Source: an uncultured Candidatus Saccharibacteria bacterium (GTDB taxonomy: Bacteria > Patescibacteriota > Minisyncoccia > Portnoybacterales > UBA2143). From it: a stretch of DNA of 64,000 nt. The first letter of the stretch is position 1; the number at the start of each line of letters is the position of its first letter. The notes beneath the pieces were generated by a model. It had not been told where the DNA came from. It saw only the letters and a program-made list of their open reading frames with translations, and made no database searches. Shown here piece after piece: positions 31,180 to 64,000 of this stretch. A program made the position numbers and the translations under genes. The DNA lies in NCBI GenBank assembly GCA_964596615.1, contig CAZQUN010000001.1, forward strand, positions 1,750 to 65,749, written 5' to 3'.

Positions 31180-31180
31180 A

Positions 31181-44612: not shown

Positions 44613-44661
44613 CCTTGATTTATCAAGTCAAGGTGATAGAATGAAAGAACTTGTATATAAT
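44613..44661 (+). promoter_or_regulatory. Divergent promoter region upstream of the glycan island: palindrome plus candidate -35/-10 elements
   Basis: Palindrome CCTTGATTTATCAAGTCAAGG (44613-44633). TTGATT-16-TAGAAT at 44615-44642. TTGTATATAAT (44652-44661) is an extended-minus-10-like element 11 nt before ATG 44673. Confidence 0.4.
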
Positions 44662-44672
44662 AATTTTTTAAT

Positions 44673-46031
44673 ATGCCTAATCTGAAAAAAATCACCCTAT
44701 TCTTCGGTGATGTTATAATCCTTTATTCTTCCCTCTGGCTAATGCTCTTTATCCGCTACGGGGGCAGTTTTGATATGGGGAGATTTGAACAACACTTCTG
44801 GCCTTTCACTATTATCTACTTTTTTTGGTTAATCATCTTTTACATTATCGGTCTCTATGATTTAACCCTAGCTAGAAACAACATTAATTTCTATTCAACC
44901 CTGTTTAAGACATTGGCTATTAATGCTGGTTTGGCAATCTCCTTCTTCTACTTCATTCCATATTTCGGCATCACTCCAAAAACAAATCTTTTTCTTAATC
45001 TTGTCATTGTCGCTTTTCTAATCTCTTTCTGGAGACAAGCCTATAATCGTCTCCTTAAATCCCAGGCTCTAATCAATAATGTCCTCATTATCGGCAAAAG
45101 CGATAAAAACAAGGAAACCAGGCAGATAATGAAATTGGTTAAAAGTAATCCTCAGCTGGGCTATCGGGTAATAAAGACAATTAAGCCAAGCGAGATAAGG
45201 ACCGCCTTTGACCTATTAGAAATGGCTACCCAGAGAAACATTAAAACTATCATTACTGCCATTGATCCCCATTATGATTCTAAATTAGTCCAGAGCTTGT
45301 ATCAATGCCTTCCCCTCAAAATCCATTTCAGCGACCTGCCTTCCTTTTATGAAAAAACATTAGGCAAAGTTCCAATTTCTTCCATTGGTGAAATCTGGTT
45401 TCTGGAAAATCTAACCGAAAGCCAGAAAAACTTCTACGAAGCGGCTAAAAGAATTATTGACATGATTGGGGCTTTGGTTTTCGGATTAGTTAGTCTAATC
45501 TTGTACCCTTTTGTTACTTTAGCCGTTAAGATAGACAGTCCTGGGCCAATTTTTATCAAACAAAGAAGGATTGGTCACGACGGACAGATTTTTACTTTGT
45601 ATAAATTTAGAACTATGTATGCCACCACCAAAGACGGTAGTAGTGAGCCAGGAGGGAAACCTATTTACGCTCAGGTCAATGATCCTCGCATTACTAAATC
45701 AGGCAAATTCTTAAGAAAGAGCCGGTTAGATGAATTGCCCCAGTTATTTAATATTTTATTCGGTCAAATGAGCTTTATTGGTCCCCGACCAGAAAGAATT
45801 GAATTTGTCCAGCAATGTGAAAAAGAAACCCCTTACTATCAAATTCGTCATATTGTTAAACCCGGTTTAACCGGCTGGGCGCAGGTCAATTTCAGATACG
45901 GCGCTTCAGTCAAAGACAGCATTGAAAAACTTCAATACGAACTCTACTATATCAAACACCGCTCTCCAATTTTAGACTTGAGCATTCTTTTAAAAACAAT
46001 CACCATTGTTTTGAAAGGAGGAGGCCGATAA
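44673..46031 (+). CDS. Polyprenyl-phosphate sugar-1-phosphate transferase (WbaP/WcaJ bacterial sugar transferase family)
   Basis: N-terminal TM bundle and a C-terminal catalytic domain with KFRTM, PRITKSGKFLRKSRLDELPQLFNIL and GPRPE motifs. Confidence 0.85.
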   Translation: MPNLKKITLFFGDVIILYSSLWLMLFIRYGGSFDMGRFEQHFWPFTIIYFFWLIIFYIIGLYDLTLARNNINFYSTLFKTLAINAGLAISFFYFIPYFGITPKTNLFLNLVIVAFLISFWRQAYNRLLKSQALINNVLIIGKSDKNKETRQIMKLVKSNPQLGYRVIKTIKPSEIRTAFDLLEMATQRNIKTIITAIDPHYDSKLVQSLYQCLPLKIHFSDLPSFYEKTLGKVPISSIGEIWFLENLTESQKNFYEAAKRIIDMIGALVFGLVSLILYPFVTLAVKIDSPGPIFIKQRRIGHDGQIFTLYKFRTMYATTKDGSSEPGGKPIYAQVNDPRITKSGKFLRKSRLDELPQLFNILFGQMSFIGPRPERIEFVQQCEKETPYYQIRHIVKPGLTGWAQVNFRYGASVKDSIEKLQYELYYIKHRSPILDLSILLKTITIVLKGGGR

Positions 46032-46891
46032 TGAAATTCTCTATCATCATCCCAACCTATAACGAAGAAGAATCTATTGGGCAAACCTTAGAAGAATTAA
46101 AGGAATATTTGAGTGGTAAAAAATATCAGGCTGAAATTATTGTCATTAACGACGGCTCCAAAGATCAGACCCAAAAAATACTTGAAAACATCAAAGGGAT
46201 TAAGGTGATTAATAGTCCATACAACAAGGGATATGGAGCCTCAATTAAAAGCGGGGTAAGTCAAGCCCAGTATAGCTGGATTTTGCTCTATGACGGCGAT
46301 GGACAGCACCGGCCGGAATATATTGAAAAATTAGTCAGAGAAAGAAAAGATTTTGATATGATTATTGGAGCCAGAACCGGATACAAAGGGCCGATTTCCC
46401 GACAGCCGGGGAAAAAACTTCTAACCTGGATAGCTAACTATTTAGTCCAGCAGAAAATCCCTGATTTAAATTCCGGTTTCCGTTTAGTCAAAAAGAATCT
46501 ATTTTTGAAATTCTCACATATTTTTCCAAGCGGGTTCTCTCTAACAACAACCATTACTCTGGCTTTTTTCAAAGAAGGCCTTAATGTTAGATATATTCCA
46601 ATTAGAATAAACAAGAGGAAAGGAAAAAGCACTGTTGGGACAAAAGACGGCTTTGAAGCCATAATGACTGTTTTCAGAACTGTGACTCTTTTTTCTCCTC
46701 TAAGAATATTTTTCCCAGCCAGTTTTCTGCTTTTCTGTCTTTCTATTGTCATTTCAATTATCCAGTCTATTCCCTTAAAAGAATTTAATATAAGTGATGC
46801 GACAATTTTAATTTTTGTCTCATCCTTATTCCTATTCTTCTTCGGTCTTTTAGCTGACCAAGTTTCAGCTATCCGAAGAGAAAAAAAATAG
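46031..46891 (+). CDS. GT2 glycosyltransferase, polyprenyl-phosphate sugar synthase type (ArnC/GtrB/DPM1-like) with C-terminal TM helices
   Basis: FSIIIPTYNEEESI, VINDGSKD, DGDGQH (DxD) and two C-terminal TM helices. ATGA overlap with the upstream gene. Confidence 0.8.
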   Translation: MKFSIIIPTYNEEESIGQTLEELKEYLSGKKYQAEIIVINDGSKDQTQKILENIKGIKVINSPYNKGYGASIKSGVSQAQYSWILLYDGDGQHRPEYIEKLVRERKDFDMIIGARTGYKGPISRQPGKKLLTWIANYLVQQKIPDLNSGFRLVKKNLFLKFSHIFPSGFSLTTTITLAFFKEGLNVRYIPIRINKRKGKSTVGTKDGFEAIMTVFRTVTLFSPLRIFFPASFLLFCLSIVISIIQSIPLKEFNISDATILIFVSSLFLFFFGLLADQVSAIRREKK

Positions 46892-46894
46892 CTT

Positions 46895-47551
46895 ATGGAT
46901 TTTTTTAACCTAATTAAAACCAGGAGAAGCGTTAGGATTTTCCAGGACAAAGAAGTCGACCAAGAATCGATTAAAAAGATTATCGAGATGGCGACTTATG
47001 CTCCTTCAGCCTGCAACATCCAGGGCTGGAGATTCATTATCATCACCGATCAGAAGAAAAAAGAAGAAATTGTTAATTTGGGCGGCTCAGTCATTATCAA
47101 AAGCGCTCCGGTTGGCATTTTAGTCCTCTATGATAACCAAACTAAAAACACTCAATACTCCGACGATGTTCAAAGCGCTTCCGCCGCTATCCAGAATCTA
47201 CTTTTATCAGCCCATTCTTTAGGACTGGGCGCCTGCTGGATTTGTCATCTTCCTCCTAAAAATCAGTTAAGAAAACTATTTCAAATTCCAAATTCTCTAT
47301 CGCCGGTTGCGTATGTTATCCTTGGCCATAAGAAAAATGAACCAGGCCAGGTACCAAGGAAATACAACCTCAGCCAGCTTATCAGTTACAATGCTTTTTC
47401 TTCAAATGTTCCTCTGAAAAATATCAATTTTCTGAAAGTTTTCATCCTGAGAGCCCTAATGAAAACGTATTTCCTTATCCCAAAACTCATCAGGAAAAAA
47501 TGGCTGAATAAATTCGCTGATAAAAGATTTGTTAAAAAGTTCGAGAATTAA
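46895..47551 (+). CDS. Nitroreductase-family flavoprotein
   Basis: IKTRRSVRIFQDKEV...ATYAPSACNIQGWRFIII, the nitroreductase fold signature; 218 aa. Confidence 0.8.
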   Translation: MDFFNLIKTRRSVRIFQDKEVDQESIKKIIEMATYAPSACNIQGWRFIIITDQKKKEEIVNLGGSVIIKSAPVGILVLYDNQTKNTQYSDDVQSASAAIQNLLLSAHSLGLGACWICHLPPKNQLRKLFQIPNSLSPVAYVILGHKKNEPGQVPRKYNLSQLISYNAFSSNVPLKNINFLKVFILRALMKTYFLIPKLIRKKWLNKFADKRFVKKFEN

Positions 47552-47552
47552 A

Positions 47553-48278
47553 ATGAAGAATAAATTTACCATTGAACAAGTTCGAGAATTTTGGAATGAG
47601 ACCGCCCCTATTTACGAAGATTGCAACAAAAAAGTAGAAGATACCCATCATCAAAGATTTAAGGAAGCAGTCAAACACTTGAAATTAGAGTCCGGACAAA
47701 AAGTTTTAAATATCTGGGCAAGAACCGGCTTAGCTATTCCTTATCTCCGCCGAGAATGCCCTGAGATTGAAATATTTAACCTAGAGGTTTCGCCTGAGTT
47801 TATTAAAATCGCTCAAAAGAAATTCCCTAATGAAAAATTCCAGCAAACCGATTTAGACTATCTGCCTTTCGAAGACAACTATTTTGACCAAATCCTTTCT
47901 CTTGAAACCCTTGAGCACACTCCTAATCCTTCCCTTTTTCTAAAAGAACTTTTCCGAACTTTAAAGCCAGGGAAAACATTGGTAATGAGTTGTCCGCCAG
48001 CCATAACCGATATTCCTTTTAAAATCTATGGAATTATTTTCAACGACCATGGCGAGGGACCTCATAAATTCCCTTCCTCTCGAAGAGTAAAAAAACTTTT
48101 GAAAGAAACTGGTTTCAGGCTCATTCTTCACAAAGGAACCCTTCTAATTAATCTTGGTCCTCAGTGGCTAAAGGATTTTGGGGAAAGAATTATAAACAAA
48201 TTCCAAAAAACACCAATTAGTGAATTAGGCTTTAGACAATTCTATGTTGCCAAAAAAGAAAATAATTCTAACATTTGA
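47553..48278 (+). CDS. Class I SAM-dependent methyltransferase-like protein with a degenerate motif I
   Basis: Methyltransf_11-like core (DLDYLPFEDNYFDQILSLETLEH...LKPGKTLVM). Motif I reads VLNIWARTG instead of a GxGxG loop. Start set at MKNKF (47553). Confidence 0.65.
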   Translation: MKNKFTIEQVREFWNETAPIYEDCNKKVEDTHHQRFKEAVKHLKLESGQKVLNIWARTGLAIPYLRRECPEIEIFNLEVSPEFIKIAQKKFPNEKFQQTDLDYLPFEDNYFDQILSLETLEHTPNPSLFLKELFRTLKPGKTLVMSCPPAITDIPFKIYGIIFNDHGEGPHKFPSSRRVKKLLKETGFRLILHKGTLLINLGPQWLKDFGERIINKFQKTPISELGFRQFYVAKKENNSNI

Positions 48279-49014
48279 TTTAGAATTTTGGTATAACAGC
48301 AAATTCTTAAAAAAATATTTATCTCAAAATGAAGACCCACCCAACGACTATGTCAGAGAATCTGTTGAGCCAATTCTTAATCTTTTGAAACAACACAATC
48401 AAAAAGTGACTTTTTTTGTTTTGGGACAAATTGCAGAAAGACACCCGGAATTAATTAAAAAGATATTTCAATCAGGACATGAGATTGCTTCTCATGGATA
48501 TTCTCATACAATTCTATCCCAATTAGGAAAAGATGGCTTTGAAAGAGAAATTGAAAAAACCAATCAGATAATCGAACAAATCATTGGCCAAAAACCGACT
48601 GGATTCCGGGCACCCAATTTTTCTCTTAACAATAAAACTAAATGGGCTTTTGATATCCTAAAAAAGCATGGCTTTAAATACGACTCAAGCATTCATCCTT
48701 TTTCGTTTAAAAAGAATTTCCAATATTCCCTAAAAGAACTACCTCCTTCTTTGGGAGGAATATATTTCCGGGCTTTCCCCTTTTGGTTTTATCTTATTCT
48801 AGTCAGAATATTCTCTAAAACCGATTCCCCAGTTATCTACTTACATCCCCATGAATTATTCGATTCAGCCCCAAGAATAGAATCAGCCCCTCGGTTTCTA
48901 AAAAAAATCAAATACTGGGGAACCAAAAGCGCTTTAGATAAATTTGAGAAACTATTAAAAAAATTCAAGTGTATTTCAATAAAGGAACACCTTAATGAAA
49001 GTACTCCTAATTAG
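48244..49014 (+). CDS. Polysaccharide deacetylase (NodB-homology, CE4)
   Basis: TFDLEFW, HEIASHGYSH and FRAPNF motifs. Confidence 0.8.
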   Translation: MLPKKKIILTFDLEFWYNSKFLKKYLSQNEDPPNDYVRESVEPILNLLKQHNQKVTFFVLGQIAERHPELIKKIFQSGHEIASHGYSHTILSQLGKDGFEREIEKTNQIIEQIIGQKPTGFRAPNFSLNNKTKWAFDILKKHGFKYDSSIHPFSFKKNFQYSLKELPPSLGGIYFRAFPFWFYLILVRIFSKTDSPVIYLHPHELFDSAPRIESAPRFLKKIKYWGTKSALDKFEKLLKKFKCISIKEHLNESTPN

Positions 49015-50407
49015 TCCGCCTAATCTTAATACAATTTCCAGTTGCATGCCTAAGGTTCTTGAAGAAGACCTTGATTTTTTGCCGCCTCTTGGGTTAATGT
49101 ATTTGGCTGGATATTTAACCGAAAAGACATCTCATCAAGCAAGTATTCTTGATTGCCAGGTAGAACAATTAAACTACCAGGATTTAAAGGAAAGAATATC
49201 TCAGGAAAATCCAGATGTTATTGGTATCACCGCCATGACTTTTACCCTAATTGACGTGATTAAAACCGCTCAATTAGCCAAAGAAACTAATCCGGAAATC
49301 AAGATTGTTTTAGGTGGTCCCCATGTTAATATTTATCCCAAAGAAACTTTGGCAATCAATGGAATTGATTTCCTCGTTCTTGGAGAAGGAGAAGAGCCAC
49401 TTGAAAAACTACTAGATAATATTAATCAAATCGAAGAACTTCGCCAAACAAAAGGGATTGTCTTTAAAGATGGGGACGAAATCATTAATACTGGCCATCA
49501 AGAGTTAATCAGAGATTTGGATTCTATCCCTTTCCCCAAAAGAGACCTTCTTCCTTATCAGAAGTATTTTTCAATTGTTTCTTCAAAAGCGCCAGTAACA
49601 ACAATGTTTACCAGCCGGGGCTGTCCTTTTCAGTGTCTTTTCTGCGACCGGCCCCATCTGGGAAAAATCTTCCGGGCCCGTTCAGCTAAAAATGTTGTCG
49701 ATGAAATGAAGGAATGCCAAGATATGGGCATTAAAGAAATTATCATCTACGACGATACTTTTGGAGTTAACCGGCAAAGAGTTCTAGATATTTGTTCTGA
49801 AATAAGGGAAAGGAGATTAACCATTGCTTGGGATGTCAGAACCAGAGTTGATACTGTTGACGAAGAAGTTTTAAAGGCGATGAAAAGTGCCAATTGCCAG
49901 AGAATTCACTACGGGGTAGAAGCTGGAACAGAAAAAATCCTTAAAATCCTTAAAAAAGGCATCAACTTGAAACAAATTAAAAATGCCTTTAAAATGACTA
50001 AGAAGATTGGCATTGAAACGATTGGGTATTTCATGATTGGCTCTCCTCGAGAAACAAAAGAAGATATTTTGGAAACAATTAAATTAACTAAAAAATTGAA
50101 TCCTGATTTTATTCATGTCTCTATAACGACTCCTTTCCCCGCGACCGGCCTCTACTTTCTCGGTCTAGAAAATAAAATTCTTCCCTACGATTACTGGAAA
50201 GAATTTGCTCAAAACCCTAAATCTGATTTTACTCCTCTTCCCTGGGAAGAAAATCTAAAAAAAGAAGAATTATTCCACCTTTTAAAACGGACTTACCGGT
50301 CCTTTTATTTCCGACCGAGATATATTATTAAAAGATTATCAAAACTTACCTCTTGGCAAGAGTTAAAAAATAAAATTAAAGCTGCCCTAAAATTATTAAG
50401 GGTTTAA
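48995..50407 (+). CDS. Cobalamin-binding radical SAM enzyme (class B) paralog 1
   Basis: N-terminal B12-binding Rossmann domain (KVLLISPP...VIGITAM...KIVLGGPHV), then a radical-SAM domain with CPFQCLFC (CxxxCxxC); 470 aa. Confidence 0.85.
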   Translation: MKVLLISPPNLNTISSCMPKVLEEDLDFLPPLGLMYLAGYLTEKTSHQASILDCQVEQLNYQDLKERISQENPDVIGITAMTFTLIDVIKTAQLAKETNPEIKIVLGGPHVNIYPKETLAINGIDFLVLGEGEEPLEKLLDNINQIEELRQTKGIVFKDGDEIINTGHQELIRDLDSIPFPKRDLLPYQKYFSIVSSKAPVTTMFTSRGCPFQCLFCDRPHLGKIFRARSAKNVVDEMKECQDMGIKEIIIYDDTFGVNRQRVLDICSEIRERRLTIAWDVRTRVDTVDEEVLKAMKSANCQRIHYGVEAGTEKILKILKKGINLKQIKNAFKMTKKIGIETIGYFMIGSPRETKEDILETIKLTKKLNPDFIHVSITTPFPATGLYFLGLENKILPYDYWKEFAQNPKSDFTPLPWEENLKKEELFHLLKRTYRSFYFRPRYIIKRLSKLTSWQELKNKIKAALKLLRV

Positions 50408-50413
50408 CTATCT

Positions 50414-51082
50414 ATGAACAAAACTACTAAAATACATCAAAAAGAGTATTGGGAAAGAAAAGAATTGGCCAAAAGAAGATCTCCCAAGCATCCTGTTATA
50501 GCAGCTTATATTCTCCCAAAAATCAATGTGATCAGGCGCCATATTAATATAAACAAGCAAACCCGTCTTTTAGATGTTGGCTGTGGCAATGGCTTCTTCA
50601 CCTTTTATTTTGATAAAATCTGCGATGCTCACGGCGTAGATTATTCTGAAAAAATGCTGCAAATGAATCCTGTCAAAAAAAAATCCCTGATGGATGCCAA
50701 CAATCTGGAGTTTGAAGATAATTCCTTTGATGTGGTTTTTTGTCATTTCCTTCTGCACCATACCGATAATCCTGATAAAATAATTCAAGAAATGCGAAGG
50801 GTCTCTAAAAAATATGTTGTTATTCTTGAGCCAAATAGAAACAATCCTCCAGAATTTCTGTTTTCACTTATTGTCAAAGAGGAAAGAGGAGCCCTAAAAT
50901 TCTCGTTGGCCTATTTGAAAAAAATAGTCGCTAGAAATAAACTGCGAATCATAAGTTCGTTTTCGTATGGCATGATAGTTCCTAATAAAACTCCGACTTG
51001 GTTAATACCATTAACCAAGCTTTTCAACTTCAAACAACCATTCGGCATAACAAGCTTTGTTATAGCTGAAAAAAACAAATAG
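50414..51082 (+). CDS. Class I SAM-dependent methyltransferase
   Basis: Canonical motif I LLDVGCGNGFF and the post-I acidic loop; EFEDNSFDVVFCHFLLHH. Confidence 0.8.
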   Translation: MNKTTKIHQKEYWERKELAKRRSPKHPVIAAYILPKINVIRRHININKQTRLLDVGCGNGFFTFYFDKICDAHGVDYSEKMLQMNPVKKKSLMDANNLEFEDNSFDVVFCHFLLHHTDNPDKIIQEMRRVSKKYVVILEPNRNNPPEFLFSLIVKEERGALKFSLAYLKKIVARNKLRIISSFSYGMIVPNKTPTWLIPLTKLFNFKQPFGITSFVIAEKNK

Positions 51083-51084
51083 AA

Positions 51085-54192: not shown

Positions 54193-54213
54193 AAATCATT
54201 GTATAAATAAATT

Positions 54214-58504: not shown

Positions 58505-59468
58505 CTTTTTTGAAAGGATAGAAGATTAATGAAAATCCTGCTCCCAAGGCAGTCAAAAAGCAAAAATATAAATCGAGAATAAAGAAAGGGAAAATTAAGT
58601 GAATTCTTCTTTCCTTAATTAGAAACCAATAAAATCCGTAGTTATACAAAAGATAAACAAGAAAAAATGAAAGAAGAAGATAGAAAAAAGAAGGAAGAAA
58701 AACCAAAACAAGGATTAAAGGAAAAATCATTGCCCCGATTAAAGTTTTAATCCCTCTTTCTTTGGTTGAATAAACCGGATCAAATTTCTTTCTTTTGATA
58801 AAAAGACGGATCCATTGCCAGCTTCTTTTTAGTGTTTTCTTTGTCAATTGTCTGAAGGTCTCAAAATGATGACCGACCAAAATATTCCTGGCGATATATA
58901 TTTTAATATTTTCCTTGGCCAAACGATAGCCAAATTCAAAATCCTCAACATCAGCCCCTTTGTATTTTTGATCAAAATATCCGAATCTATCAAAGATATT
59001 TCTTTTAACGGCTGAACGCTCGGTAGTAAAAGATGTCTGGTATTCTCCTGGCTGACTCCAAAGATAATATTTGTAATAGGCGATATACAATGGAGTTAAT
59101 CCTTTGTTCAGAGGAGTCTTATCTTTGACCATAATAATTCCATCGATTTCCGGTTTTTCCAAGAAAATTTCATTTAATTCCGAAAGGGCATTATTCTCTT
59201 TAAAAGTGACATCCGAGTCAACAAAGACAACGATTTCTCCTTGGGCTTTTTTAATGCCGACGTTTCTGGCTCCGGCTGGACCCAAATTCTTTTCCAAAAC
59301 AATCTGTTTAGCATTGTATTGATTAATAATTTCTTCGGTTTTATCAGTTGAAGCATCGTTGATTAGAATAACCTCAAAATCAGAAAAGTTCTGCCTCTTC
59401 ACAGAATCTAAACACTTTCCTATTGTTTTTTCAGCATTGTAAGCCGGGATAACAATTGAGAATTTCAT
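58497..59468 (-). CDS. GT2 glycosyltransferase with a C-terminal TM anchor
   Basis: FSIVIPAYNAEKTI, ILINDASTD, FVDSDV (DxD) and a C-terminal hydrophobic domain. Confidence 0.75.
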   Translation of the reverse strand: MKFSIVIPAYNAEKTIGKCLDSVKRQNFSDFEVILINDASTDKTEEIINQYNAKQIVLEKNLGPAGARNVGIKKAQGEIVVFVDSDVTFKENNALSELNEIFLEKPEIDGIIMVKDKTPLNKGLTPLYIAYYKYYLWSQPGEYQTSFTTERSAVKRNIFDRFGYFDQKYKGADVEDFEFGYRLAKENIKIYIARNILVGHHFETFRQLTKKTLKRSWQWIRLFIKRKKFDPVYSTKERGIKTLIGAMIFPLILVLVFLPSFFYLLLSFFLVYLLYNYGFYWFLIKERRIHLIFPFFILDLYFCFLTALGAGFSLIFYPFKKDE

Positions 59469-59469
59469 A

Positions 59470-61188
59470 TTACCTGATTAGATTTAAAAACCAGCTTTTA
59501 GTTTGAGAGGTTTCCGGCAAGGAGACCTCAATATTATCGGAAGCAATATTTTCAACCCGAGAATTATTTAAAATCTCTTTGGTTAATTCAGGAGAGTAGC
59601 CAAGAACATATTTAACATTGAACTTATCAAAAGCAGGCTGAAGATTTTTCTGCTCAATTAGCTTTTCTATTGTTTTGGGCGCGAAAATGACAATTGATTT
59701 TTCAGTCTGGTAAGCTATTTTCTCCCACTGAGTCCCTGGTATACCAGGGCTGCTTAAGGCAATAATTTCTTCATCTTTAATCTTAAATTTCTTTATTTCC
59801 CTAACATGGGTATCAGCAGCCAAATATTCTTCGTTGTCATAGATTCTCCCCCACAAGACATGATTACTTAGAACCAGATTGTACAAAACCAACAGAATCA
59901 ACAGGGCTCCCATTATTCTCTTTCCATTATCTCCCATTCGAAAATACTGGGATAGAATATTGATCAAGAATAATAAGCCGAGAGCAATGACCAAAGCAAT
60001 CCCCCAACTAAAATCCATCAAATGATTGCGGGTTCCCATGTAGACATAGGAAGCAAAAAACAGAAAGAAGACGATCCAAAAAACAAAAAACCAATATAAA
60101 TAACTGTGTTCTCTTTTCAAAAATAAAAATCCAAAGATAAAAAGCAGAAAAATAAATGGTCCGCCAATATCCTCAATGGCAAAGAAACGAAAACTATGCC
60201 TTAAGAAATTAACTGTTCCAACCTTTAATCTTCCCACCAACCCCGGACTTTTAAAAGCCTGGGTGGCAGATACTTTGATTGCTTCTATCTCTTCGAACAT
60301 TCCCAAGTCAGGAGAAACGACACTTAGCCTTAGATCGTTTAGAAAGTTCTCTCGGTCAAAATGATAGGTATAAGGGTCTGGGAAAATATGATGATAGAGA
60401 AAAAAATCGAAAAAATCAGTTCTTTCTTCAATATCGGCCTTAAGAGGTTGCGCATAATAATCTTTGCCAGAAAATATCTCTGGCAGCCAGAAAAGAGAAA
60501 CAATGATAATAAATGGAATAAAAGTATAAATTAGGCACTTTTTTTCTTTTCTGAACAACAGATAAAGAAAAAAGGCAGGGGCAGCTGTGAACATTGCCTC
60601 CTTGGCTATGCCAGTTAGAGCTAAAAAAATACCTGATAGAAAGATTAAAAAATATCTGTATTTAAATTCTGATTTCAGTCCGATAAAGAATAATAGTGAG
60701 AATAAAGAAAAGAAAAGAAGGCAAATTTCATAAGTTCCGAAATTATAAACAATATAATACCAATTAAAAGGCAAAAGAACATAGACAAGAGAAAAAAGAG
60801 CGGCTATTTTAAAATCAAAAAGATAATAAACTACAATAGTGAAAATAATTAAAGTCAAAACCAGAATAGCTATTGAAACAAAAATCAAATTATTGTATTC
60901 GGGTAAACCAGTAATCCTAAAAATCTGAGCCAGGACAACAGAAGTCAGCTTATTACCAACAATAGAATTCTGCGCCTGTTCTTTGACTAAAGAGGGCGCC
61001 AGAATAATATTAAGACTATTTTCTGTTCCATAGATGCCTTCTTGAAAGTAATTCCGAGCCAATAATAAAGAACCGCGCGAAACCGTAGCTGAATAACCCT
61101 TGAACATTGTTGGGGCATACCAGACCGAAACAGCAAAAACAGCAACCCCAGCCAAAAGAATAATGAATTTTAATTTTTCTTTAGACAT
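59470..61188 (-). CDS. Large polytopic membrane protein, GT-C-fold glycosyltransferase-like (ArnT/PMT/oligosaccharyltransferase-like); tentative
   Basis: 572 aa, at least 11 predicted TM helices and a C-terminal soluble domain. Sits beside polyprenyl-P-sugar synthases. No diagnostic motif confirmed. Confidence 0.4.
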   Translation of the reverse strand: MSKEKLKFIILLAGVAVFAVSVWYAPTMFKGYSATVSRGSLLLARNYFQEGIYGTENSLNIILAPSLVKEQAQNSIVGNKLTSVVLAQIFRITGLPEYNNLIFVSIAILVLTLIIFTIVVYYLFDFKIAALFSLVYVLLPFNWYYIVYNFGTYEICLLFFSLFSLLFFIGLKSEFKYRYFLIFLSGIFLALTGIAKEAMFTAAPAFFLYLLFRKEKKCLIYTFIPFIIIVSLFWLPEIFSGKDYYAQPLKADIEERTDFFDFFLYHHIFPDPYTYHFDRENFLNDLRLSVVSPDLGMFEEIEAIKVSATQAFKSPGLVGRLKVGTVNFLRHSFRFFAIEDIGGPFIFLLFIFGFLFLKREHSYLYWFFVFWIVFFLFFASYVYMGTRNHLMDFSWGIALVIALGLLFLINILSQYFRMGDNGKRIMGALLILLVLYNLVLSNHVLWGRIYDNEEYLAADTHVREIKKFKIKDEEIIALSSPGIPGTQWEKIAYQTEKSIVIFAPKTIEKLIEQKNLQPAFDKFNVKYVLGYSPELTKEILNNSRVENIASDNIEVSLPETSQTKSWFLNLIR

Positions 61189-62614
61189 TTTTTTTCTTTT
61201 TTCTTAAACTAACCTGATTACTAAAGAGCCAATAACTGAAAGCATCTTTAATTGAAGGTCGATAAAACCAAAAGGTCTGCCAGGCAAAAAACGAAGAATG
61301 AACAGTTTCAAAAAATATATTTCTTTTAAGCTTTATCAGCCGTCTAACAATTGGTTCTAGAAAATATATCTTTGAAAGGAGAGGAATAAAGAAAAGTAAA
61401 TTTTCCAATTCCTCTTTATTCTCTAGGTTAAAAGGAGAATAATATTGGCTATTTAAATCCATCTGATTTGGATCATAATCTTCATCCAGATATCCCTTTT
61501 CCTTAGCGTAATCTAAAAGATGAGTTCCTGGAAAGGGCTGGGCAAATCCAATCGCAACAAGATCTGCCTTAATCTTACTATTAATCTGAGCAGTCTTAAA
61601 TCCATCATCAATTGACTCTCCCGGCAAGCACATCATATTAAAGGTTTTTAATTTCAATCCCTTGCTTTTAATAATCTTGGAGGCTCTGATAATATCATCA
61701 TCCGAAACATTTTTTTTCAAAATCTCATTTCGCAAACGCTCGTTGCCGGTTTCAATACCCATAGTTACCCCCCTGCAACCAGCGCTTTTTAAAAGATCAA
61801 CAGTGCTCTCATCAATTAAATCAGCTCTTACCTGGGCAATAAACTCTAGATTAATTTTCTCTTTGTACTTCCGAGAGAATTCTTTTAGCCAATCTTTCTT
61901 CAGAATAAAGGTATCATCTGAGAAATATATTCTCTTCAGACCATAATTATCTCTAACCATTGATATTTCCTCTATCAAACTATCAACGCTTCGTAATCTG
62001 GTGTATTTGCCTTTTCCAGCATAAAGATTCTTGTAAGCCTGGTTAACACAGAAAATGCAATCAAAAGGGCATCCCCGGCCGGCAATAAAATTCTTAACAA
62101 TGCTTTTTCTAAGATAATCATACTTTTTGTAATAGAGATCCCTATCAGGCAAAGGCAAGGCATTCAAATCTTCAATTAATGGCCTTAATGGATTTTTAAT
62201 AATTCTATCTCCTTCTTTTATCCAAATGTTTTCTATTCTTTTAATATCTTCTTTTCTTTCCATTTTTTCCACTAATTCCAAGAGAGCCTCTTCTCCTTCA
62301 CCGATACAAATCATATCAATTCCGTCCTGATTTAAAACATTAGGAGAAAAAGTCGGATGAGGGCCACCCATAATAATTGGGATATCAAATCTTTTTTTAA
62401 TTATTCTGGCCTTTTCCAAGGCCCAGTTATGAATTGTTGTTGTACAGGAAAATCCTATCAAATCGGGCTTAATCTGCCCTATTTCTTCAATCAAATCTTG
62501 ATTGTTTGAAGGAACAATAAGGGAGGCCTCGAAGCCAGCCTTTTTCAAAACACTTGAAAGATGCATTAGCCCAAAAGAGACAAACCCCGAATAACTGACA
62601 AAGAGAATTTTCAT
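61181..62614 (-). CDS. Cobalamin-binding radical SAM enzyme (class B) paralog 4
   Basis: B12-binding domain (KILFVSYSG...LIGFSC...IIMGGPHPT), then CPFDCIFC. Start set at MKILFV (62614). Confidence 0.8.
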   Translation of the reverse strand: MKILFVSYSGFVSFGLMHLSSVLKKAGFEASLIVPSNNQDLIEEIGQIKPDLIGFSCTTTIHNWALEKARIIKKRFDIPIIMGGPHPTFSPNVLNQDGIDMICIGEGEEALLELVEKMERKEDIKRIENIWIKEGDRIIKNPLRPLIEDLNALPLPDRDLYYKKYDYLRKSIVKNFIAGRGCPFDCIFCVNQAYKNLYAGKGKYTRLRSVDSLIEEISMVRDNYGLKRIYFSDDTFILKKDWLKEFSRKYKEKINLEFIAQVRADLIDESTVDLLKSAGCRGVTMGIETGNERLRNEILKKNVSDDDIIRASKIIKSKGLKLKTFNMMCLPGESIDDGFKTAQINSKIKADLVAIGFAQPFPGTHLLDYAKEKGYLDEDYDPNQMDLNSQYYSPFNLENKEELENLLFFIPLLSKIYFLEPIVRRLIKLKRNIFFETVHSSFFAWQTFWFYRPSIKDAFSYWLFSNQVSLRKKKKNV

Positions 62615-64000
62615 TTGAGTATGTTGCATAGGACTAAAAGACCTCTCAGATAGCGCCTCCATTCCATTGGTCTAGAAATTTTTCTAATTATATACCCAGG
62701 CCTTAAATAGAACCGACGGTATGCCCTTGAGACAACCCTTTTTAATTCATCCTTGTTCTTGTATCCCTTGGGTAAAAATGGATGACCTGAAATATCAAAG
62801 GATTTATCATCAATTGATGATACCTCTCCCCATTTTTTTCCTTCTTTATCAAGAGCGGTAAAAGGAAAGGCAATCGTTGAATGGAACTGGACAAAATCAG
62901 GCTCCAACTTAATTAAATCATCAACAGTTTTCTCCGCTATTTCCGGGGTCTCGCCCGGCAAGCCCAGCATCATAGACATCCGGGTCTCTATTCCAGCTGC
63001 CTTGGTCAATTTAACCGCCTGGTAATTAAACTTCAATTCCATCTTCTTATTAATATTATCCAATAACTCCTGGGAAAAACTTTCGACTCCGTAAAGAATT
63101 GAAACACAACCTGCTTTTTTCATTAATTCAAGTATTTCTTTATCAACTAAATCAGTTCTAGTCTGACAAGACCAAATTATCCCTAGATTTTCTTTAATTA
63201 ACAACTGACACAAATTCTTAACCCAATTCCTATTAACCGTAAAATTCAAAGAACCAAAATTAATCTGTTTTGCCCCGTAATCCTTTTTAACCAGCTTTAT
63301 CTCTTCAATAATCTTTTCGGGAGAACGAACCCGATAATTTCTTCCACCAACAATATTTAAAAGACAAAAAGTGCAGTCATATGGACAACCCCGCGAAGTT
63401 AAAACATCAAGACAAGGTTCTTTAACTACAGTATGGGGTAATTTCCGGTAATATTCCATCTTAAGCAACTCTCTGCTGGCCATAGGCAAATCATCAAGAT
63501 TTATCGGTGGCCGGACTTCATTCTCAATAATTTCTTTTCCTTTTCTAAAAATCAGCCCCTTTATTAATTCTTTCTCTCTTCCATCAACAAGTTCTTTAAT
63601 TGTTTCTTCCGGATCGCCATAGGCGCTGGCATCTATCCTTGGATTATTCCTCATGACTGACCTGATTAATTCTTTGCTGTAACTTCCAAAAAGAACGACT
63701 TGGCTGTTTTTAAGAGTGTTAGCAATGCTAATCGCGCCTTCCAAGCCCCAGCGACATCTATCAAAAGGGGCAAAGAGAACAAAATCCGGAGAAAAATTAT
63801 CAACATCTTTCAGAATGCTTTCCAAATGCCTATCTTCAACCAGACAATCAAGGATTTTTACCTGGTGGCCGCTATTAATCAAAACCGGAGCAAGAGTAAC
63901 AGCCTCCAATGGAAAAAGAGTCGTTCTAAAATTCCTTTTGAAGGAATTCTTTTCTTTGGGCTCCTTTCTTTTTTCTGGAGCAATATTGGGCGGGGAAATG
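62611..64000 (-). CDS. Cobalamin-binding radical SAM enzyme (class B) paralog 5; the 5' end runs beyond the window
   Basis: CPYDCTFC radical-SAM motif and a B12-domain-like N-region. The reading frame stays open upstream to position 64000, and the aligned N-terminus of the paralogs is missing, so the true start is outside the window. Confidence 0.75.
   Translation of the reverse strand, partial: ISPPNIAPEKRKEPKEKNSFKRNFRTTLFPLEAVTLAPVLINSGHQVKILDCLVEDRHLESILKDVDNFSPDFVLFAPFDRCRWGLEGAISIANTLKNSQVVLFGSYSKELIRSVMRNNPRIDASAYGDPEETIKELVDGREKELIKGLIFRKGKEIIENEVRPPINLDDLPMASRELLKMEYYRKLPHTVVKEPCLDVLTSRGCPYDCTFCLLNIVGGRNYRVRSPEKIIEEIKLVKKDYGAKQINFGSLNFTVNRNWVKNLCQLLIKENLGIIWSCQTRTDLVDKEILELMKKAGCVSILYGVESFSQELLDNINKKMELKFNYQAVKLTKAAGIETRMSMMLGLPGETPEIAEKTVDDLIKLEPDFVQFHSTIAFPFTALDKEGKKWGEVSSIDDKSFDISGHPFLPKGYKNKDELKRVVSRAYRRFYLRPGYIIRKISRPMEWRRYLRGLLVLCNILK

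What the first reader, a model, noticed from the sequence alone, without database searches (positions are those of the whole stretch)
44673..64000. Large cell-envelope glycoconjugate island with seven radical SAM enzymes
At least nineteen tightly packed genes, often overlapping, combine a complete polyprenyl-phosphate glycan pathway with seven radical SAM enzymes and three class I methyltransferases. The glycan genes are a WbaP-like initiating transferase, two ArnC/GtrB-like GT2 polyprenyl-P-sugar synthases, a third GT2, a flippase-like protein, a GT-C-like polytopic protein and a CE4 deacetylase. The radical SAM set is five B12-binding class B enzymes plus two SPASM-type enzymes. Class B radical SAM enzymes usually methylate or rearrange unactivated carbons. 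Five of them inside a glycan operon suggests a heavily C-alkylated or rearranged lipid-linked glycan or glycolipid, which is not a described pathway. The island takes up about a third of the window, runs off its end, and is striking for a reduced genome.
Basis: partly seen in the sequence, partly recalled or inferred. Interest (0 to 1): 0.85.

Follow-up and report, generated by a model that had tools for sequence, protein, structure and literature searches.

The report
Radical-SAM-rich surface glycan island in CPR
A tiny-genome (Patescibacteria/CPR) bacterium devotes at least 36 kb to a cell-surface sugar pathway built from lipid-carrier glycosylation enzymes interleaved with nine or more radical SAM enzymes, an arrangement that recurs in related genomes, has no described counterpart, and predicts a new kind of radical tailoring of lipid-linked sugars.

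Summary
An identical public contig extends the island by 16.5 kb, giving at least 36 kb, nine rSAMs, three GT-C enzymes and a Wzx. The organism is Portnoybacteria-like.

Comparative evidence:
- The cassette dehydratase-like SDR, C4-aminotransferase, polyprenyl-P-sugar GT2, orthologue of the central B12-rSAM recurs in 15 loci across CPR, Omnitrophota and a Planctomycetales-labelled MAG.
- In CPR it is usually followed by the flippase-like gene and a convergent GT-C.
- GT2c and the SPASM rSAM are fused in three loci.

Best reading (about 0.5): several Arn/Gtr-like three-component glycosylation systems in which cytoplasmic rSAMs tailor carrier-linked, mostly amino, sugars before flipping. The chemistry is unresolved: C-methylation, HpnJ-like ring contraction, or deoxygenation. 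No member of HpnJ or any curated equivalog was found, and no paper describes this. It is a new variant of a known kind.

The parts
44633..44661 (+). Promoter-like site (GTGATA-17-TATAAT) in the 87-nt divergent intergenic region, 12 nt upstream of the first island gene
   Evidence: consensus match only
44673..46031 (+). g01: polyprenyl-phosphate phosphoglycosyl transferase (WbaP/WcaJ-like initiating enzyme), 452 aa, 4 TM-like segments
   Evidence: PF02397 204 bits. TIGR03025 355 bits, above the 295.6 cutoff. Orthologues upstream of the cassette in L001, L007, L010, L020.
46031..46891 (+). g02 GT2a: polyprenyl-P-sugar synthase-type GT2, 286 aa, 2 C-terminal TM helices, DGD motif
   Evidence: PF00535. 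Best solved relatives are GtrB 9e-17, DPMS and ArnC. TM prediction. 39% identical to GT2b.
46895..47551 (+). g03: nitroreductase-family flavoprotein, 218 aa (weakly BluB-like).
   Evidence: PF00881 111 bits. BluB TIGR02476 82 bits, below the 150 cutoff. The NTR+MT+B12-rSAM adjacency is also seen in a Chlamydiota MAG, L021.
47529..48278 (+). g04 MTa: class I SAM methyltransferase, 249 aa
   Evidence: PF08241 66 bits
48244..49014 (+). g05: cytoplasmic CE4 (NodB-fold) deacetylase with DUF3473, 256 aa. Motifs TFD, HGYSH, RAP and LHPHE are present. No TM helix or signal peptide.
   Evidence: PF01522 103 bits and PF11959. TIGR03006 187 bits, below the 276 cutoff. Motifs read from the sequence. Solved relatives are PG/chitin deacetylases.
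48995..50407 (+). g06 B12a: B12-binding-domain radical SAM enzyme, 470 aa, CPFQCLFC
   Evidence: PF02310 98 bits and PF04055 95 bits. HpnJ 238 and BchE 228 bits, both below cutoff.
50414..51082 (+). g07 MTb: class I SAM methyltransferase, 222 aa
   Evidence: PF08241 75 bits
51085..52533 (+). g08 B12b: B12-binding-domain radical SAM enzyme, 482 aa
   Evidence: PF04055 91 bits and PF02310 65 bits. 62% identical orthologue in L005.
52520..53530 (+). g09 SPASMa: radical SAM/SPASM enzyme, 336 aa, BtrN-like
   Evidence: PF04055 68 bits and PF13186 52 bits. Best solved relative is BtrN, 1.7e-16.
53527..54192 (+). g10 MTc: class I SAM methyltransferase, 221 aa
   Evidence: PF08241 72 bits
54214..55083 (+). 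g11 GT2b: polyprenyl-P-sugar synthase-type GT2, 289 aa, 2 C-terminal TM helices, DAD motif. Overlaps the next gene by 1 nt.
   Evidence: PF00535 116 bits. Best solved relatives are ArnC 7e-18, GtrB and DPMS, aligned over residues 3-244. TM prediction.
55083..56501 (+). g12 B12c: the conserved core B12-binding-domain radical SAM enzyme, 472 aa
   Evidence: PF04055 102 bits and PF02310 78 bits. HpnJ 246 bits, below the 578 cutoff. Solved relatives are AprD4 4e-27, QCMT and OxsB. Orthologues (44-85% identity) follow a GT2 in 15 or more loci.
56498..57451 (+). g13: flippase-like polytopic membrane protein (MprF-TM/AglD/HpnL family), 317 aa. Overlaps B12c by 4 nt.
   Evidence: PF03706 158 bits. TIGR00374 89 bits, above the 43 cutoff. 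HpnL 27 bits, below the 196 cutoff. Follows B12c in CPR loci.
57440..58504 (-). g14 SPASMb: radical SAM enzyme with a C-terminal SPASM/twitch-like domain, 354 aa
   Evidence: PF04055 65 bits. PF13186 20.9 bits, just below the 21.5 gathering score. 73% orthologue in L005. Fused to GT2c in L007, L019 and L011.
58497..59468 (-). g15 GT2c: membrane-anchored GT2 of the ordinary glycan-extending type, 323 aa, 2 C-terminal TM helices
   Evidence: PF00535 116 bits. Solved relatives are chondroitin synthase, GalT1 and TagF. 75% orthologue in L005.
59470..61188 (-). g16: GT-C fold glycosyltransferase, 572 aa, about 12 TM helices plus a C-terminal extracytoplasmic alpha/beta domain. No Pfam or NCBIfam match.
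   Evidence: AF2 pLDDT 89.3, pTM 0.90. The top 33 Foldseek PDB hits are all polytopic ER/envelope membrane enzymes: 32 are GT-C enzymes (STT3/AglB/PglB, ALG9/12, Pmt4, AftA, PimE, Emb; TMq about 0.5 for the OSTs) and one, at rank 24, is a GPI-transamidase subunit. 99-bit homology to a PF13231 protein of L003. Rare family: 199 representatives among 1.84 billion.
61181..62614 (-). g17 B12d: B12-binding-domain radical SAM enzyme. 477 aa from the ATG at 62614; the longest ORF reaches 62662.
   Evidence: PF04055 84 bits and PF02310 71 bits. Gene call on the identical contig.
62611..64000 (-). g18 B12e: radical SAM enzyme with a degenerate B12-like N-terminal domain. The true start is at 64014, outside the window (467 aa).
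   Evidence: PF04055 101 bits. PF02310 21.8 bits, below the 32.1 gathering score, even full length. Coordinates from the identical contig L027.

Best explanation
The island is a cell-envelope glycoconjugate locus of a Portnoybacteria-like CPR bacterium. It runs several Arn/Gtr/CsbB-YfhO-style 'three-component' glycosylation systems alongside a phosphoglycosyl-transferase-initiated glycan.

**Proposed sequence of events**
1. At the cytoplasmic face, GtrB/ArnC-like GT2s (GT2a, GT2b) load a sugar from a nucleotide donor onto polyprenyl phosphate.
2. The carrier-linked sugar is then tailored in the cytoplasm. The CE4 enzyme N-deacetylates it, playing the role of ArnD or HpnK. The radical SAM enzymes do chemistry at unactivated carbons: four to five HpnJ/BchE-like B12-domain enzymes, one BtrN-like SPASM enzyme, and one SPASM enzyme that is physically coupled to GT2c in relatives. 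Class I methyltransferases N- or O-methylate it.
3. The MprF/AglD/HpnL-type flippase-like protein moves the product across the membrane.
4. GT-C enzymes (572 aa here, two more just beyond the window) transfer it onto an extracytoplasmic acceptor. The acceptor could be the PGT/GT2c/Wzx-made glycan, a wall polymer, or a surface protein.

**Shown**: the family or fold of every component, their operon coupling, the conserved gene order and the fusions.

**Inferred**: the order of steps, that the rSAM substrates are carrier-linked sugars, the flipping, and the acceptor.

**Chemistry**: my ranking is C-methylation of an (amino)sugar, then HpnJ/Cds/PtmC-type ring contraction to a cyclitol, then AprD4/BtrN-type deoxygenation or oxidation. 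Different paralogues probably do different things.
For: **Families and folds**
- Pfam and NCBIfam assignments.
- GT2a and GT2b have the two-TM C-terminal hairpin. Their best solved relatives are GtrB, DPMS and ArnC.
- The 572-aa and 577-aa proteins are GT-C by AF2 plus Foldseek.
- The rSAMs, methyltransferases and CE4 have no TM helices or signal peptides, so they work in the cytoplasm.

**Coupling and conservation**
- Gene overlaps of 1-35 nt across each operon.
- SDR(4,6-dehydratase-like)-DegT(PseC/ArnB-like)-GT2(AglJ/PpgS/ArnC-like)-B12c orthologue occurs in 15 distinct loci of CPR, Omnitrophota and a Planctomycetales-labelled MAG. A methyltransferase and/or a second B12-rSAM usually follows. 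In most CPR loci the flippase-like gene and a convergent GT-C follow too.
- This window and its 85%-identical relative L032 lack SDR-DegT but keep GT2-B12c-flippase. The constant partner of B12c is therefore the carrier-loading GT2, not the nucleotide-sugar enzymes.
- GT2c-SPASMb are single fused proteins of 682-685 aa in L007 and L019, and partially in L011. The rSAM follows the GT2's membrane hairpin.

**Precedents and nearest characterised relatives**
- The nearest characterised relatives all act on (amino)sugars or cyclitols: AprD4 (4e-27) and BtrN (1.7e-16) by solved structure, HpnJ by profile.
- GT + N-deacetylase + rSAM acting on a lipid- or aglycone-linked GlcN is known genetically in HpnI/K/J, in PtmJ/G/C and, without the deacetylase, in Cds (PMC13459092 section 3.2; PMC9092360 section 4.2).
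- Island GC is lower than the flanking housekeeping genes (0.36 and 0.34 vs 0.385). From my own knowledge, variable surface-glycan loci often show this.
Against: - No biochemical data exist for any protein of these families.
- No rSAM here passes a curated equivalog cutoff, so the chemistry is a guess.
- Gene order does not fix reaction order. The rSAMs could act on nucleotide sugars. One 891-aa B12-rSAM-SDR fused ORF in L019 and the DesI/DesII precedent point that way.
- A carbocyclic product of HpnJ-type ring contraction would no longer be a glycosyl donor for a GT-C. This argues against that chemistry for the flipped-and-transferred sugar.
- The PF03706 family has no demonstrated flippase activity for polyprenyl-P-sugars, and HpnL's function is unknown (PMC12324291).
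- In the Omnitrophota and Planctomycetales-labelled loci, no flippase-like or GT-C gene was detected next to the cassette.
- Cobalamin binding is untested. One paralogue has a degenerate B12 domain, and the closest solved relative (AprD4) binds no B12.
- From general knowledge, CPR bacteria do not make cobalamin.
Confidence: 0.5

Rival explanations
1. This is the same glycan locus, but the radical SAM enzymes tailor nucleotide-activated sugars before any transfer. The model is DesII acting on the DesI product TDP-4-amino-4,6-dideoxyglucose, or the aminoglycoside enzymes acting on soluble intermediates. The GT2s then load the finished sugar onto the carrier.
For: - In relatives, B12c sits in one operon with a 4,6-dehydratase-like SDR and a DegT/DesI-family aminotransferase.
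- L019 has a single 891-aa ORF joining a B12-rSAM paralogue to that SDR.
- The closest solved relatives, AprD4 and BtrN, use soluble substrates.
Against: - The window and L032 keep GT2-B12c-flippase while lacking SDR and DegT altogether.
- B12c always lies after the GT2 and, in CPR, before the flippase-like gene, with overlapping stop and start codons.
- SPASMb is fused behind the membrane hairpin of GT2c in three loci.
- The B12-SDR fusion is a single case. In L007 the two genes merely overlap, so it could be an assembly frameshift.
Confidence: 0.2
2. The radical SAM enzymes remodel lipid moieties rather than sugars. Targets would be scavenged membrane lipids or the polyprenyl carrier, by analogy with HpnP/HpnR, GDGT-MAS, Tes or the ladderane B12-rSAM. 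The product would be an unusual glycolipid whose tail, not head group, is alkylated or cross-linked.
For: - Sub-threshold profile matches to the 'lipid biosynthesis B12-binding/radical SAM protein' (106-146 bits), HpnR, and Tes/GDGT-MAS.
- Several Hpn-like neighbours are present: HpnL-like, and in the extension an HpnA-like SDR.
- From general knowledge, CPR bacteria lack de novo lipid synthesis and must adapt host lipids.
Against: - The matches to HpnJ, BchE, PhpK and ApyD are as strong or stronger. This means generic class B similarity.
- No lipid-synthesis or acyl-handling genes occur in the island or in the related loci.
- The invariant partners are sugar enzymes: SDR, DegT, GT2, CE4 and GT-C.
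Confidence: 0.08
3. Part of the cluster is a RiPP or protein-maturation system. B12-rSAM C-methylases such as PoyB/C, and SPASM maturases, normally modify peptides. Here they would merely be neighbours of glycan genes.
For: - SPASM domains are typical of peptide maturases.
- Sub-threshold matches to ApyD (120-187 bits) and to 'RiPP maturation radical SAM C-methyltransferase' (71-123 bits).
Against: - The region is 99.8% coding with no intergenic gap above 21 nt, so there is no room for a precursor-peptide gene.
- There is no leader peptidase, RiPP recognition element protein or ABC exporter.
- The rSAM genes are interleaved and translationally coupled with GT genes.
- SPASMb is fused to a GT2 in relatives.
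- SPASMa's best solved relative is the sugar dehydrogenase BtrN, not a peptide maturase.
Confidence: 0.03

Closest known systems
Arn pathway of Gram-negative bacteria (ArnA/B/C/D/E-F/T: lipid A modification with 4-amino-4-deoxy-L-arabinose)
   Same: - The logic and most of the families match. In relatives the order is SDR, DegT/ArnB-like aminotransferase, ArnC-like GT2 loading an aminosugar on undecaprenyl phosphate, a cytoplasmic CE4-family de-N-acylase acting on the carrier-linked sugar (ArnD), a flippase, then a GT-C transferase (ArnT).
- ArnC is the best solved relative of GT2b.
- ArnT is among the fold matches of the 577-aa GT-C.
   Different: - No Arn equivalog cutoff is met (ArnC 74 vs 529 bits; ArnB 270-302 vs 631 bits in relatives).
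- The flippase belongs to a different family: PF03706, not the SMR-like ArnE/F.
- The window itself has no aminotransferase.
- Most importantly, one to several radical SAM enzymes and class I methyltransferases sit between loading and flipping. Arn has none.
- From general knowledge, CPR bacteria lack lipid A, so the acceptor must differ.
Three-component extracytoplasmic glycosylation systems (GtrA/B/C, CsbB-GtcA-YfhO, GacI/J/K/L, archaeal AglJ/AglD-AglR-AglS)
   Same: - A GT2 polyprenyl-P-monosaccharide synthase with a C-terminal TM hairpin, a small flippase, and a GT-C enzyme.
- AglJ is the top NCBIfam match of GT2a and GT2b.
- AglD carries the same PF03706-type domain (InterPro IPR022791, as quoted in PMC12324291).
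- YfhO replaces the CPR GT-C in locus L031.
   Different: - There are no GtrA-family flippases.
- Several synthases and several GT-Cs share one island.
- The known systems have no radical SAM tailoring step.
Hopanoid side-chain module hpnI-hpnJ-hpnK-hpnL (BHT to BHT-GlcNAc to BHT-GlcN to BHT cyclitol ether)
   Same: - The same four families sit side by side: a membrane GT2, an HpnJ-like B12-domain rSAM (the best NCBIfam match for four of the five in-window paralogues), an N-deacetylase step, and an HpnL-like PF03706 membrane protein.
- The rSAM is thought to act on a lipid-linked aminosugar. Related cases are Cds (calditol) and PtmC (pactamycin).
   Different: - HpnJ scores 138-246 bits against a 578 cutoff, and HpnL 27-52 bits against 196.
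- From my own knowledge, HpnK belongs to a different deacetylase family from the CE4 enzyme here.
- No squalene-hopene cyclase or HpnH was found in the window or the loci. True HpnJ occurs only in SHC+HpnH genomes (PMC12324291).
- The lipid here is most likely polyprenyl phosphate.
- HpnJ's own chemistry is only inferred from a knockout.
Aminoglycoside/aminocyclitol tailoring radical SAM enzymes (AprD4, BtrN, GenK/GenD1/Fms7)
   Same: - They are the closest solved relatives of B12c (AprD4, 4e-27) and of SPASMa (BtrN, 1.7e-16).
- They show that class B and twitch/SPASM rSAMs deoxygenate, oxidise and C-methylate aminosugars.
   Different: - They act on soluble secondary-metabolite intermediates in actinomycete or Bacillus antibiotic clusters, not on carrier-linked envelope sugars.
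- Sequence identity is low and no family cutoff is met (AprD4 family 72-139 vs 500 bits).
Uncharacterised rSAM-containing glycan loci in cultured bacteria (Lawsonia intracellularis plasmid 1; Solidesulfovibrio carbinolicus pDCAR1)
   Same: B12c homologues (27-32% identity, full length) are embedded among GT2s, epimerases, further rSAMs and, in Lawsonia only, multiple class I methyltransferases and polytopic membrane proteins such as DUF2142.
   Different: - The sugar-activation genes differ (heptose-type SIS, GHMP kinase and HAD in Lawsonia).
- There is no PF03706 gene.
- All are annotated only as 'radical SAM protein', so they give no functional information.

Membership tests
Radical SAM superfamily | PF04055 core above the gathering score, with a CX3CX2C cluster motif | tested here: met
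   All seven in-window proteins score 65-102 bits against a 29.5 cutoff, and each has one CX3CX2C motif.
Class B (B12-binding-domain) radical SAM enzymes | N-terminal PF02310 Rossmann-like B12-binding domain above the gathering score, preceding the rSAM core | tested here: met
   Met for B12a-d (98, 65, 78 and 71 bits vs 32.1) and for the sixth paralogue outside the window (55 bits). Not met for B12e (21.8 bits full length), which is homologous but degenerate.
Class B (B12-binding-domain) radical SAM enzymes | Actual cobalamin binding and use | not testable with these tools
   There is no sequence motif that decides this. The closest solved relative, AprD4, has the domain but is listed as unrelated to B12 use (PMC12931638).
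HpnJ (TIGR03471, hopanoid cyclitol-ether rSAM) | Score at or above the equivalog cutoff of 577.6 bits | tested here: not met
   138-246 bits.
HpnJ (TIGR03471, hopanoid cyclitol-ether rSAM) | Genomic co-occurrence with squalene-hopene cyclase and HpnH | tested here: not met
   Neither was found in the 64-kb window, the 16.5-kb extension or the related loci. The rest of the genome was not available.
Polyprenyl-phosphate sugar synthases (GtrB/ArnC/DPMS-type GT2) | GT-A catalytic domain with a DxD motif, plus interface helices and a C-terminal TM hairpin. The closest relatives should be the solved members. | tested here: met
   GT2a and GT2b: PF00535, DGD/DAD motifs, 2 C-terminal TM segments. The top PDB hits are GtrB, DPMS and ArnC, aligned to residue 218-244. 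No equivalog cutoff is met. Activity was not tested.
GT-C glycosyltransferases | Polytopic GT-C fold with a long first extracytoplasmic loop carrying conserved acidic residues | tested here: met
   AF2 models have pLDDT 89 and 83. The top Foldseek hits are almost exclusively GT-C enzymes. E56 is nearly invariant in loop 1. Sequence homology to a PF13231 protein. No Pfam hit for the proteins themselves.
Arn pathway | ArnB aminotransferase, ArnC, ArnD, ArnE/F and ArnT equivalogs all present | tested here: not met
   The window has no aminotransferase (tblastn). ArnC scores 74 vs 529 bits. No ArnD, ArnE/F or ArnT models were hit. The resemblance is of logic and families only.
Wzx/Wzy-dependent polysaccharide pathway | PGT, Wzx flippase, Wzy polymerase and a chain-length regulator | tested here: inconclusive
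   PGT is present. A PF01943 Wzx is present only outside the window, in the extension. No Wzy or Wzz was recognised. Unannotated membrane proteins (432 aa) remain.
MprF/AglD/HpnL flippase-like domain family (PF03706, TIGR00374) | Score above the family cutoffs. Lipid-linked substrate translocation. | tested here: met
   PF03706 158 vs 33 bits and TIGR00374 89 vs 43 bits. Translocation activity is not testable here, and there is no solved relative by sequence.
RiPP biosynthetic cluster | A precursor peptide gene next to the maturases | tested here: not met
   No intergenic gap exceeds 21 nt and the region is 99.8% coding.

The most novel reading that the evidence does not exclude
Class B and SPASM radical SAM enzymes use polyprenyl-phosphate-linked aminosugars as substrates, which would be a substrate class not yet described for them. 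They would build C-methylated, deoxygenated or carbocyclic sugar units on the carrier. A PF03706-type flippase then exports these units, and a CPR-specific GT-C family installs them on the cell surface. One small-genome episymbiont stacks several such modules (at least nine rSAMs). Its surface chemistry would therefore depend on cobalamin it cannot make itself.
Probability: 0.35. Interest if true: 0.85.

Novelty: new variant of a known kind. Interest (0 to 1): 0.7.

Why it matters
**For CPR biology.** From general knowledge, the cell surface is what CPR/Patescibacteria use to attach to and live off host cells, and almost nothing is known about its chemistry. This locus occupies a large share of a small genome. 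It predicts surface sugars carrying radical-installed modifications and a dependence on scavenged cobalamin.

**For enzymology.** It offers a conserved, compact, testable cassette: SDR, aminotransferase, carrier-loading GT2, then B12-rSAM. This could assign a first function to a large uncharacterised branch of the more than 220,000-member B12-rSAM family (PMC12931638). It could also give indirect access to the still unproven chemistry of HpnJ, Cds and PtmC.

**For glycobiology.** It would add a tailoring stage at the carrier-linked monosaccharide level to the Arn/Gtr paradigm. It might also explain carbocyclic or branched sugars of unknown origin in bacterial polysaccharides, such as caryose (PMC9092360).

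Tried and rejected
- **Exact look-up of the 493-aa B12d ORF** found nothing. The public gene call starts 16 codons later. The source contig was reached instead through the GT-C protein.
- **tRNA and Rfam scans** of the window found nothing.
Taxonomy rests on the best hits (Portnoybacteria and 'Patescibacteria group').
- **Literature.** Six full-text searches combined CPR/Patescibacteria, radical SAM, cobalamin, glycosyltransferase, polyprenyl phosphate, O-antigen, glycosylation, cell envelope, S-layer and pili. They returned nothing relevant.
- **HpnJ membership** was considered and rejected: scores are far below the cutoff and there is no SHC context.
- **RiPP reading** was rejected: there is no room for a precursor gene.
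- **Recent horizontal transfer.** Island GC is only 0.025-0.05 below the flanks, and the genes' best hits are all CPR. I do not claim foreign origin.
- **Profile-profile comparison of the two GT-C families** was weak (probability 30%). The fold search settled it instead.
- **The flippase-like protein** has no solved relative by sequence.
- **Reference phylogeny.** NCBIfam bit-score profiles and PDB hits were used as a proxy. They do not place the paralogues in any characterised clade.

Full report
**What is there**

Window 44673-64000 holds 18 genes with essentially no non-coding DNA: 99.8% coding, and no gap above 21 nt. Thirteen genes on the + strand run from a promoter-like site at 44633-44661 to 57451. 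Five genes on the - strand run inward from beyond the window's end to 57440. The two sets overlap by 12 nt.

Pfam and NCBIfam give the following genes, in order along the + strand:
- a WbaP/WcaJ-type phosphoglycosyl transferase (TIGR03025, above cutoff)
- GT2a
- a class I methyltransferase
- a CE4 deacetylase with DUF3473
- B12-rSAM a
- a methyltransferase
- B12-rSAM b
- a radical SAM/SPASM enzyme
- a methyltransferase
- GT2b
- B12-rSAM c
- a PF03706/TIGR00374 flippase-like protein

On the - strand, in window order from 57440 outward (the reverse of the direction of transcription), are a second rSAM with a marginal SPASM domain, GT2c, a 572-aa polytopic protein with no family match, B12-rSAM d and B12-rSAM e.

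Further details:
- All seven rSAMs have CX3CX2C. The five B12-type proteins are old paralogues, 28-38% identical.
- GT2a and GT2b (39% identical) each end in two TM helices. Their best solved relatives are GtrB, DPMS and ArnC, so they are polyprenyl-phosphate sugar synthases by every test available here.
- GT2c resembles ordinary glycan-extending GT2s.
- The CE4 enzyme has its metal and catalytic motifs and no export signal.
- The 572-aa protein folds with pLDDT 89 into a GT-C enzyme. Of its top 33 Foldseek hits in the PDB, 32 are GT-C glycosyltransferases and one (rank 24) is a GPI-transamidase subunit.

Corrections to the observation:
- There are 18 genes, not 19 or more.
- B12e starts at 64014, outside the window. 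Its B12 domain stays below Pfam's threshold even full length.
- The second SPASM domain is just under threshold.
- The pathway is not 'complete' within the window.

**Source and true extent**

The best relatives of the proteins are from Candidatus Portnoybacteria and other Patescibacteria, at 72% or less for most. The rest of the window is housekeeping: TGT, two MreB, RRF, MurA, ribosomal proteins, RpoA, AlaRS, SecDF, SecA and MurB.

A Logan contig is identical to the window over 13,559 bp and carries the locus 16.5 kb further. Going outward it encodes:
- a 54%-identical GT-C paralogue
- a methyltransferase
- a Wzx
- a GT9
- a 577-aa protein that is also GT-C by structure
- a sixth B12-rSAM
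- a 432-aa unknown
- a PF01663 phosphodiesterase-family protein
- a methyltransferase
- an HpnA-like SDR
- a third SPASM/twitch rSAM
- a second flippase-like protein
- two more GT2s

The contig then ends. The island is therefore at least 36 kb, with about 32 genes, at least nine rSAMs and at least three GT-Cs. Its GC content (0.36 and 0.34) is somewhat below the flank (0.385).

**Comparative evidence**

I fetched 22 genome loci with a profile of B12c and several contigs by exact protein look-up. I then mapped all island proteins onto them. Four results matter.

(i) *A conserved cassette.* Every locus whose B12c homologue is at least 44% identical, and that extends far enough upstream, has the cassette SDR, DegT aminotransferase, GT2, B12c. 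That is 15 distinct loci from Portnoy-, Buchanan-, Zambryski- and 'Saccharibacteria'-labelled CPR genomes, Omnitrophota and a Planctomycetales-labelled MAG.
- The SDR is 4,6-dehydratase-like.
- The aminotransferase is PseC/ArnB/WecE-like.
- The GT2 is AglJ/PpgS/ArnC-like.
- B12c is usually followed by a second B12-rSAM and/or a class I methyltransferase.
- In most CPR loci it is then followed by the flippase-like gene and a convergent GT-C. That GT-C is annotated PMT_2 in the Zambryskibacteria locus and is homologous to the 572-aa protein.

(ii) *The window is a variant.* It has no aminotransferase anywhere. In place of SDR-DegT-GT2 it carries BtrN-like rSAM, methyltransferase, GT2b. An 85%-identical relative, L032, shares this layout. 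B12c therefore travels with the carrier-loading GT2 and the flippase-like gene, not strictly with the nucleotide-sugar enzymes.

(iii) *Gene fusions.* GT2c and the SPASM rSAM are one polypeptide of 682-685 aa in L007 and L019, and partially in L011. The rSAM follows the GT2's membrane hairpin. One ORF in L019 fuses a B12-rSAM paralogue to the SDR. That is a single case, and the genes merely overlap in L007.

(iv) *A mosaic locus.* With the closest long relative (L005) the window shares B12b, B12c, the flippase, SPASMb, GT2c and the GT-C at 43-75% identity, but not B12a, d or e. L033 has the B12d-B12e pair. An unrelated uncultured bacterium (L031) has at least eight B12-rSAMs around GT2s, a CE4 and the GT-C YfhO.

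Looser analogues sit on plasmids of cultured Lawsonia intracellularis and Solidesulfovibrio carbinolicus. All are annotated only as 'radical SAM protein'. The GT-C family itself is rare: 199 representatives at E of 1e-3 or better among 1.84 billion proteins. It is sometimes fused to what look, from their sequence motifs, like GT4 domains.

**How it most likely works**

Family and fold assignments, operon coupling, conserved order and fusions are shown. The rest is inference.

The architecture is that of the Arn, Gtr, CsbB-YfhO and archaeal AglJ/AglD-AglS systems. A GT2 puts one sugar on polyprenyl phosphate at the cytoplasmic face. The lipid-linked sugar may be edited, as ArnD de-formylates in the Arn pathway. 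It is then flipped, and a GT-C enzyme transfers it to an extracytoplasmic acceptor.

Here the editing stage is greatly expanded. It comprises a CE4 deacetylase, four or five HpnJ/BchE-like B12-domain rSAMs, two SPASM rSAMs and three methyltransferases. All are soluble cytoplasmic proteins encoded between the loading GT2s and the flippase-like gene.

The PGT, GT2c, Wzx and GT9 presumably build a carrier-PP-linked glycan that may be the acceptor. The OST-like fold matches of the GT-Cs leave surface-protein glycosylation equally possible.

The nearest characterised relatives of the rSAMs all handle (amino)sugars or cyclitols:
- AprD4 and BtrN by solved structure.
- HpnJ by profile.

The genetic triad 'glycosyltransferase + N-deacetylase + rSAM acting on the attached glucosamine' is known from HpnI/K/J and PtmJ/G/C, and Cds acts on a lipid-linked hexose. 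None of these is biochemically proven (PMC13459092; PMC9092360).

The chemistry cannot be read from sequence:
- QCMT (a C-methylase) and OxsB (ring contraction) are also among the solved relatives (PMC12931638).
- No curated equivalog cutoff is met by any paralogue.
- I rank C-methylation first, because the sugar must remain a glycosyl donor for the GT-C and because methyltransferase-rich contexts fit a heavily methylated aminosugar.
- Ring contraction comes second, and deoxygenation or oxidation third.

The nitroreductase-family protein may be a flavin-dependent reductant for the clusters or cobalamin. It could also be a BluB-like lower-ligand enzyme (82 bits vs a 150 cutoff). This is speculation.

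**Rivals**

- *Tailoring at the nucleotide-sugar stage* (about 0.2). This fits the SDR-DegT linkage and the DesI/DesII precedent. It fits poorly with the window and L032 variant and with the membrane-tethered SPASM fusion.
- *Lipid-tail remodelling* (about 0.08). This has only generic class B similarity behind it and no lipid genes.
- *A RiPP system* (about 0.03). This is excluded in practice by the absence of any space for a precursor gene.

**Comparison with the known, and novelty**

The locus works like Arn/Gtr-type three-component systems and resembles the hpnIJKL module in family composition. It is a member of neither. Arn, HpnJ and HpnL cutoffs are missed by wide margins, no SHC or HpnH is nearby, and the flippase family differs from ArnE/F and GtrA. 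HpnL's own function is unknown, and true HpnJ is confined to hopanoid producers (PMC12324291).

I found no paper that describes radical SAM tailoring within a polyprenyl-phosphate glycosylation system, or these CPR loci. The searchable library is incomplete, so this is absence of evidence.

I rate it a new variant of a known kind. The parts and the overall carrier logic are known. The new elements are a conserved rSAM tailoring stage and its extreme multiplication in a reduced genome.

Interest is 0.7. The finding is real, conserved and experimentally tractable, and it touches both CPR surface biology and the large unexplored B12-rSAM space. The key mechanistic claim remains inference.

Noticed in passing
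window 64000 onward; L027/L028 (Logan SRR8146440_1850), window-equivalent 64001-80526: An identical contig shows the island continuing for 16.5 kb. It adds two more GT-C proteins (567 and 577 aa), a Wzx, a GT9, a sixth B12-rSAM, a third SPASM/twitch rSAM, a second PF03706 protein, an HpnA-like SDR, a PF01663 phosphodiesterase-family protein, a 432-aa unknown, two methyltransferases and two GT2s. The contig ends inside the locus.
   Followed up: yes
L007:16086-18134(-), L019:12955-15012(-), L011:5669-7063(-): In these loci (L007 and L019 Buchananbacteria-labelled; L011 from a MAG labelled Gammaproteobacteria), GT2c and the SPASM radical SAM enzyme are one fused protein of 682-685 aa. The order is GT2, TM hairpin, rSAM. 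The window has them as overlapping separate genes.
   Followed up: yes
L019:3-2678(+): A single 891-aa ORF joins a B12-rSAM paralogue to the 4,6-dehydratase-like SDR. In L007 the two genes only overlap, so this may be a true fusion or an assembly frameshift.
   Followed up: partly
L031 / L013 (CAYWRA010000004.1, uncultured bacterium): An unrelated genome has an even denser cluster. It holds at least eight B12-type rSAMs plus one plain rSAM, GT2s, a CE4 deacetylase, an asparagine-synthase-like protein and the GT-C YfhO.
   Followed up: partly
L035 (Lawsonia intracellularis plasmid 1, NC_008012) and L034 (Solidesulfovibrio carbinolicus pDCAR1): Cultured bacteria carry plasmid-borne glycan loci with B12c homologues (27-32% identity). 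The Lawsonia locus has further rSAMs, five class I methyltransferases, GT2s, heptose-type activation genes and DUF2142. All are annotated only as 'radical SAM protein'. These are possible tractable models.
   Followed up: partly
window 42801-44585 (-): A 594-aa protein is transcribed divergently from the island. It has an N-terminal signal/TM segment and an HEFQH motif, so it may be a secreted zinc metalloprotease. It has no Pfam hit. A 620-bit homologue lies near the PGT gene in locus L010.
   Followed up: partly
window 46895-47551 (+); L021:1947-3621: The nitroreductase-family gene's best NCBIfam match is BluB, the cobalamin lower-ligand synthase (82 bits, below cutoff). The nitroreductase-methyltransferase pair also precedes a B12c-like rSAM in a Chlamydiota MAG.
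   Followed up: partly
window 59470-61188 (-) and homologues P0191, P0205, P0268: The 572-aa GT-C belongs to a rare family with no Pfam model. It has 199 representatives at E of 1e-3 or better among 1.84 billion proteins. Some members carry an N-terminal domain of about 400 aa that looks GT4-like from its sequence motifs.
   Followed up: partly
window 6165-7220 (-), 15356-16363 (-), 26153-27424 (-): There are two full MreB paralogues and an FtsA/MreB-like actin-fold protein in one 64-kb stretch. The second MreB sits between MurA and two GT4 glycosyltransferases.
   Followed up: no
window 24267-26150, 29524-32560 (-): A TrwB/VirD4/HerA-like coupling ATPase with a treble-clef zinc finger (551 aa) sits beside unannotated proteins of 459 and 627 aa. 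This may be a DNA-uptake or secretion module.
   Followed up: no
window 32635-33693 (-): A 352-aa protein combines sigma-70 region 4 with a HARE-HTH domain. This is an unusual regulator architecture.
   Followed up: no
window 4168-5358 (-), 10125-11180 (-): A GH1 family glycoside hydrolase matched in two stretches (396 aa, shorter than the 453-position model), and a BNR/Sortilin-Vps10 repeat protein, lie among housekeeping genes.
   Followed up: no
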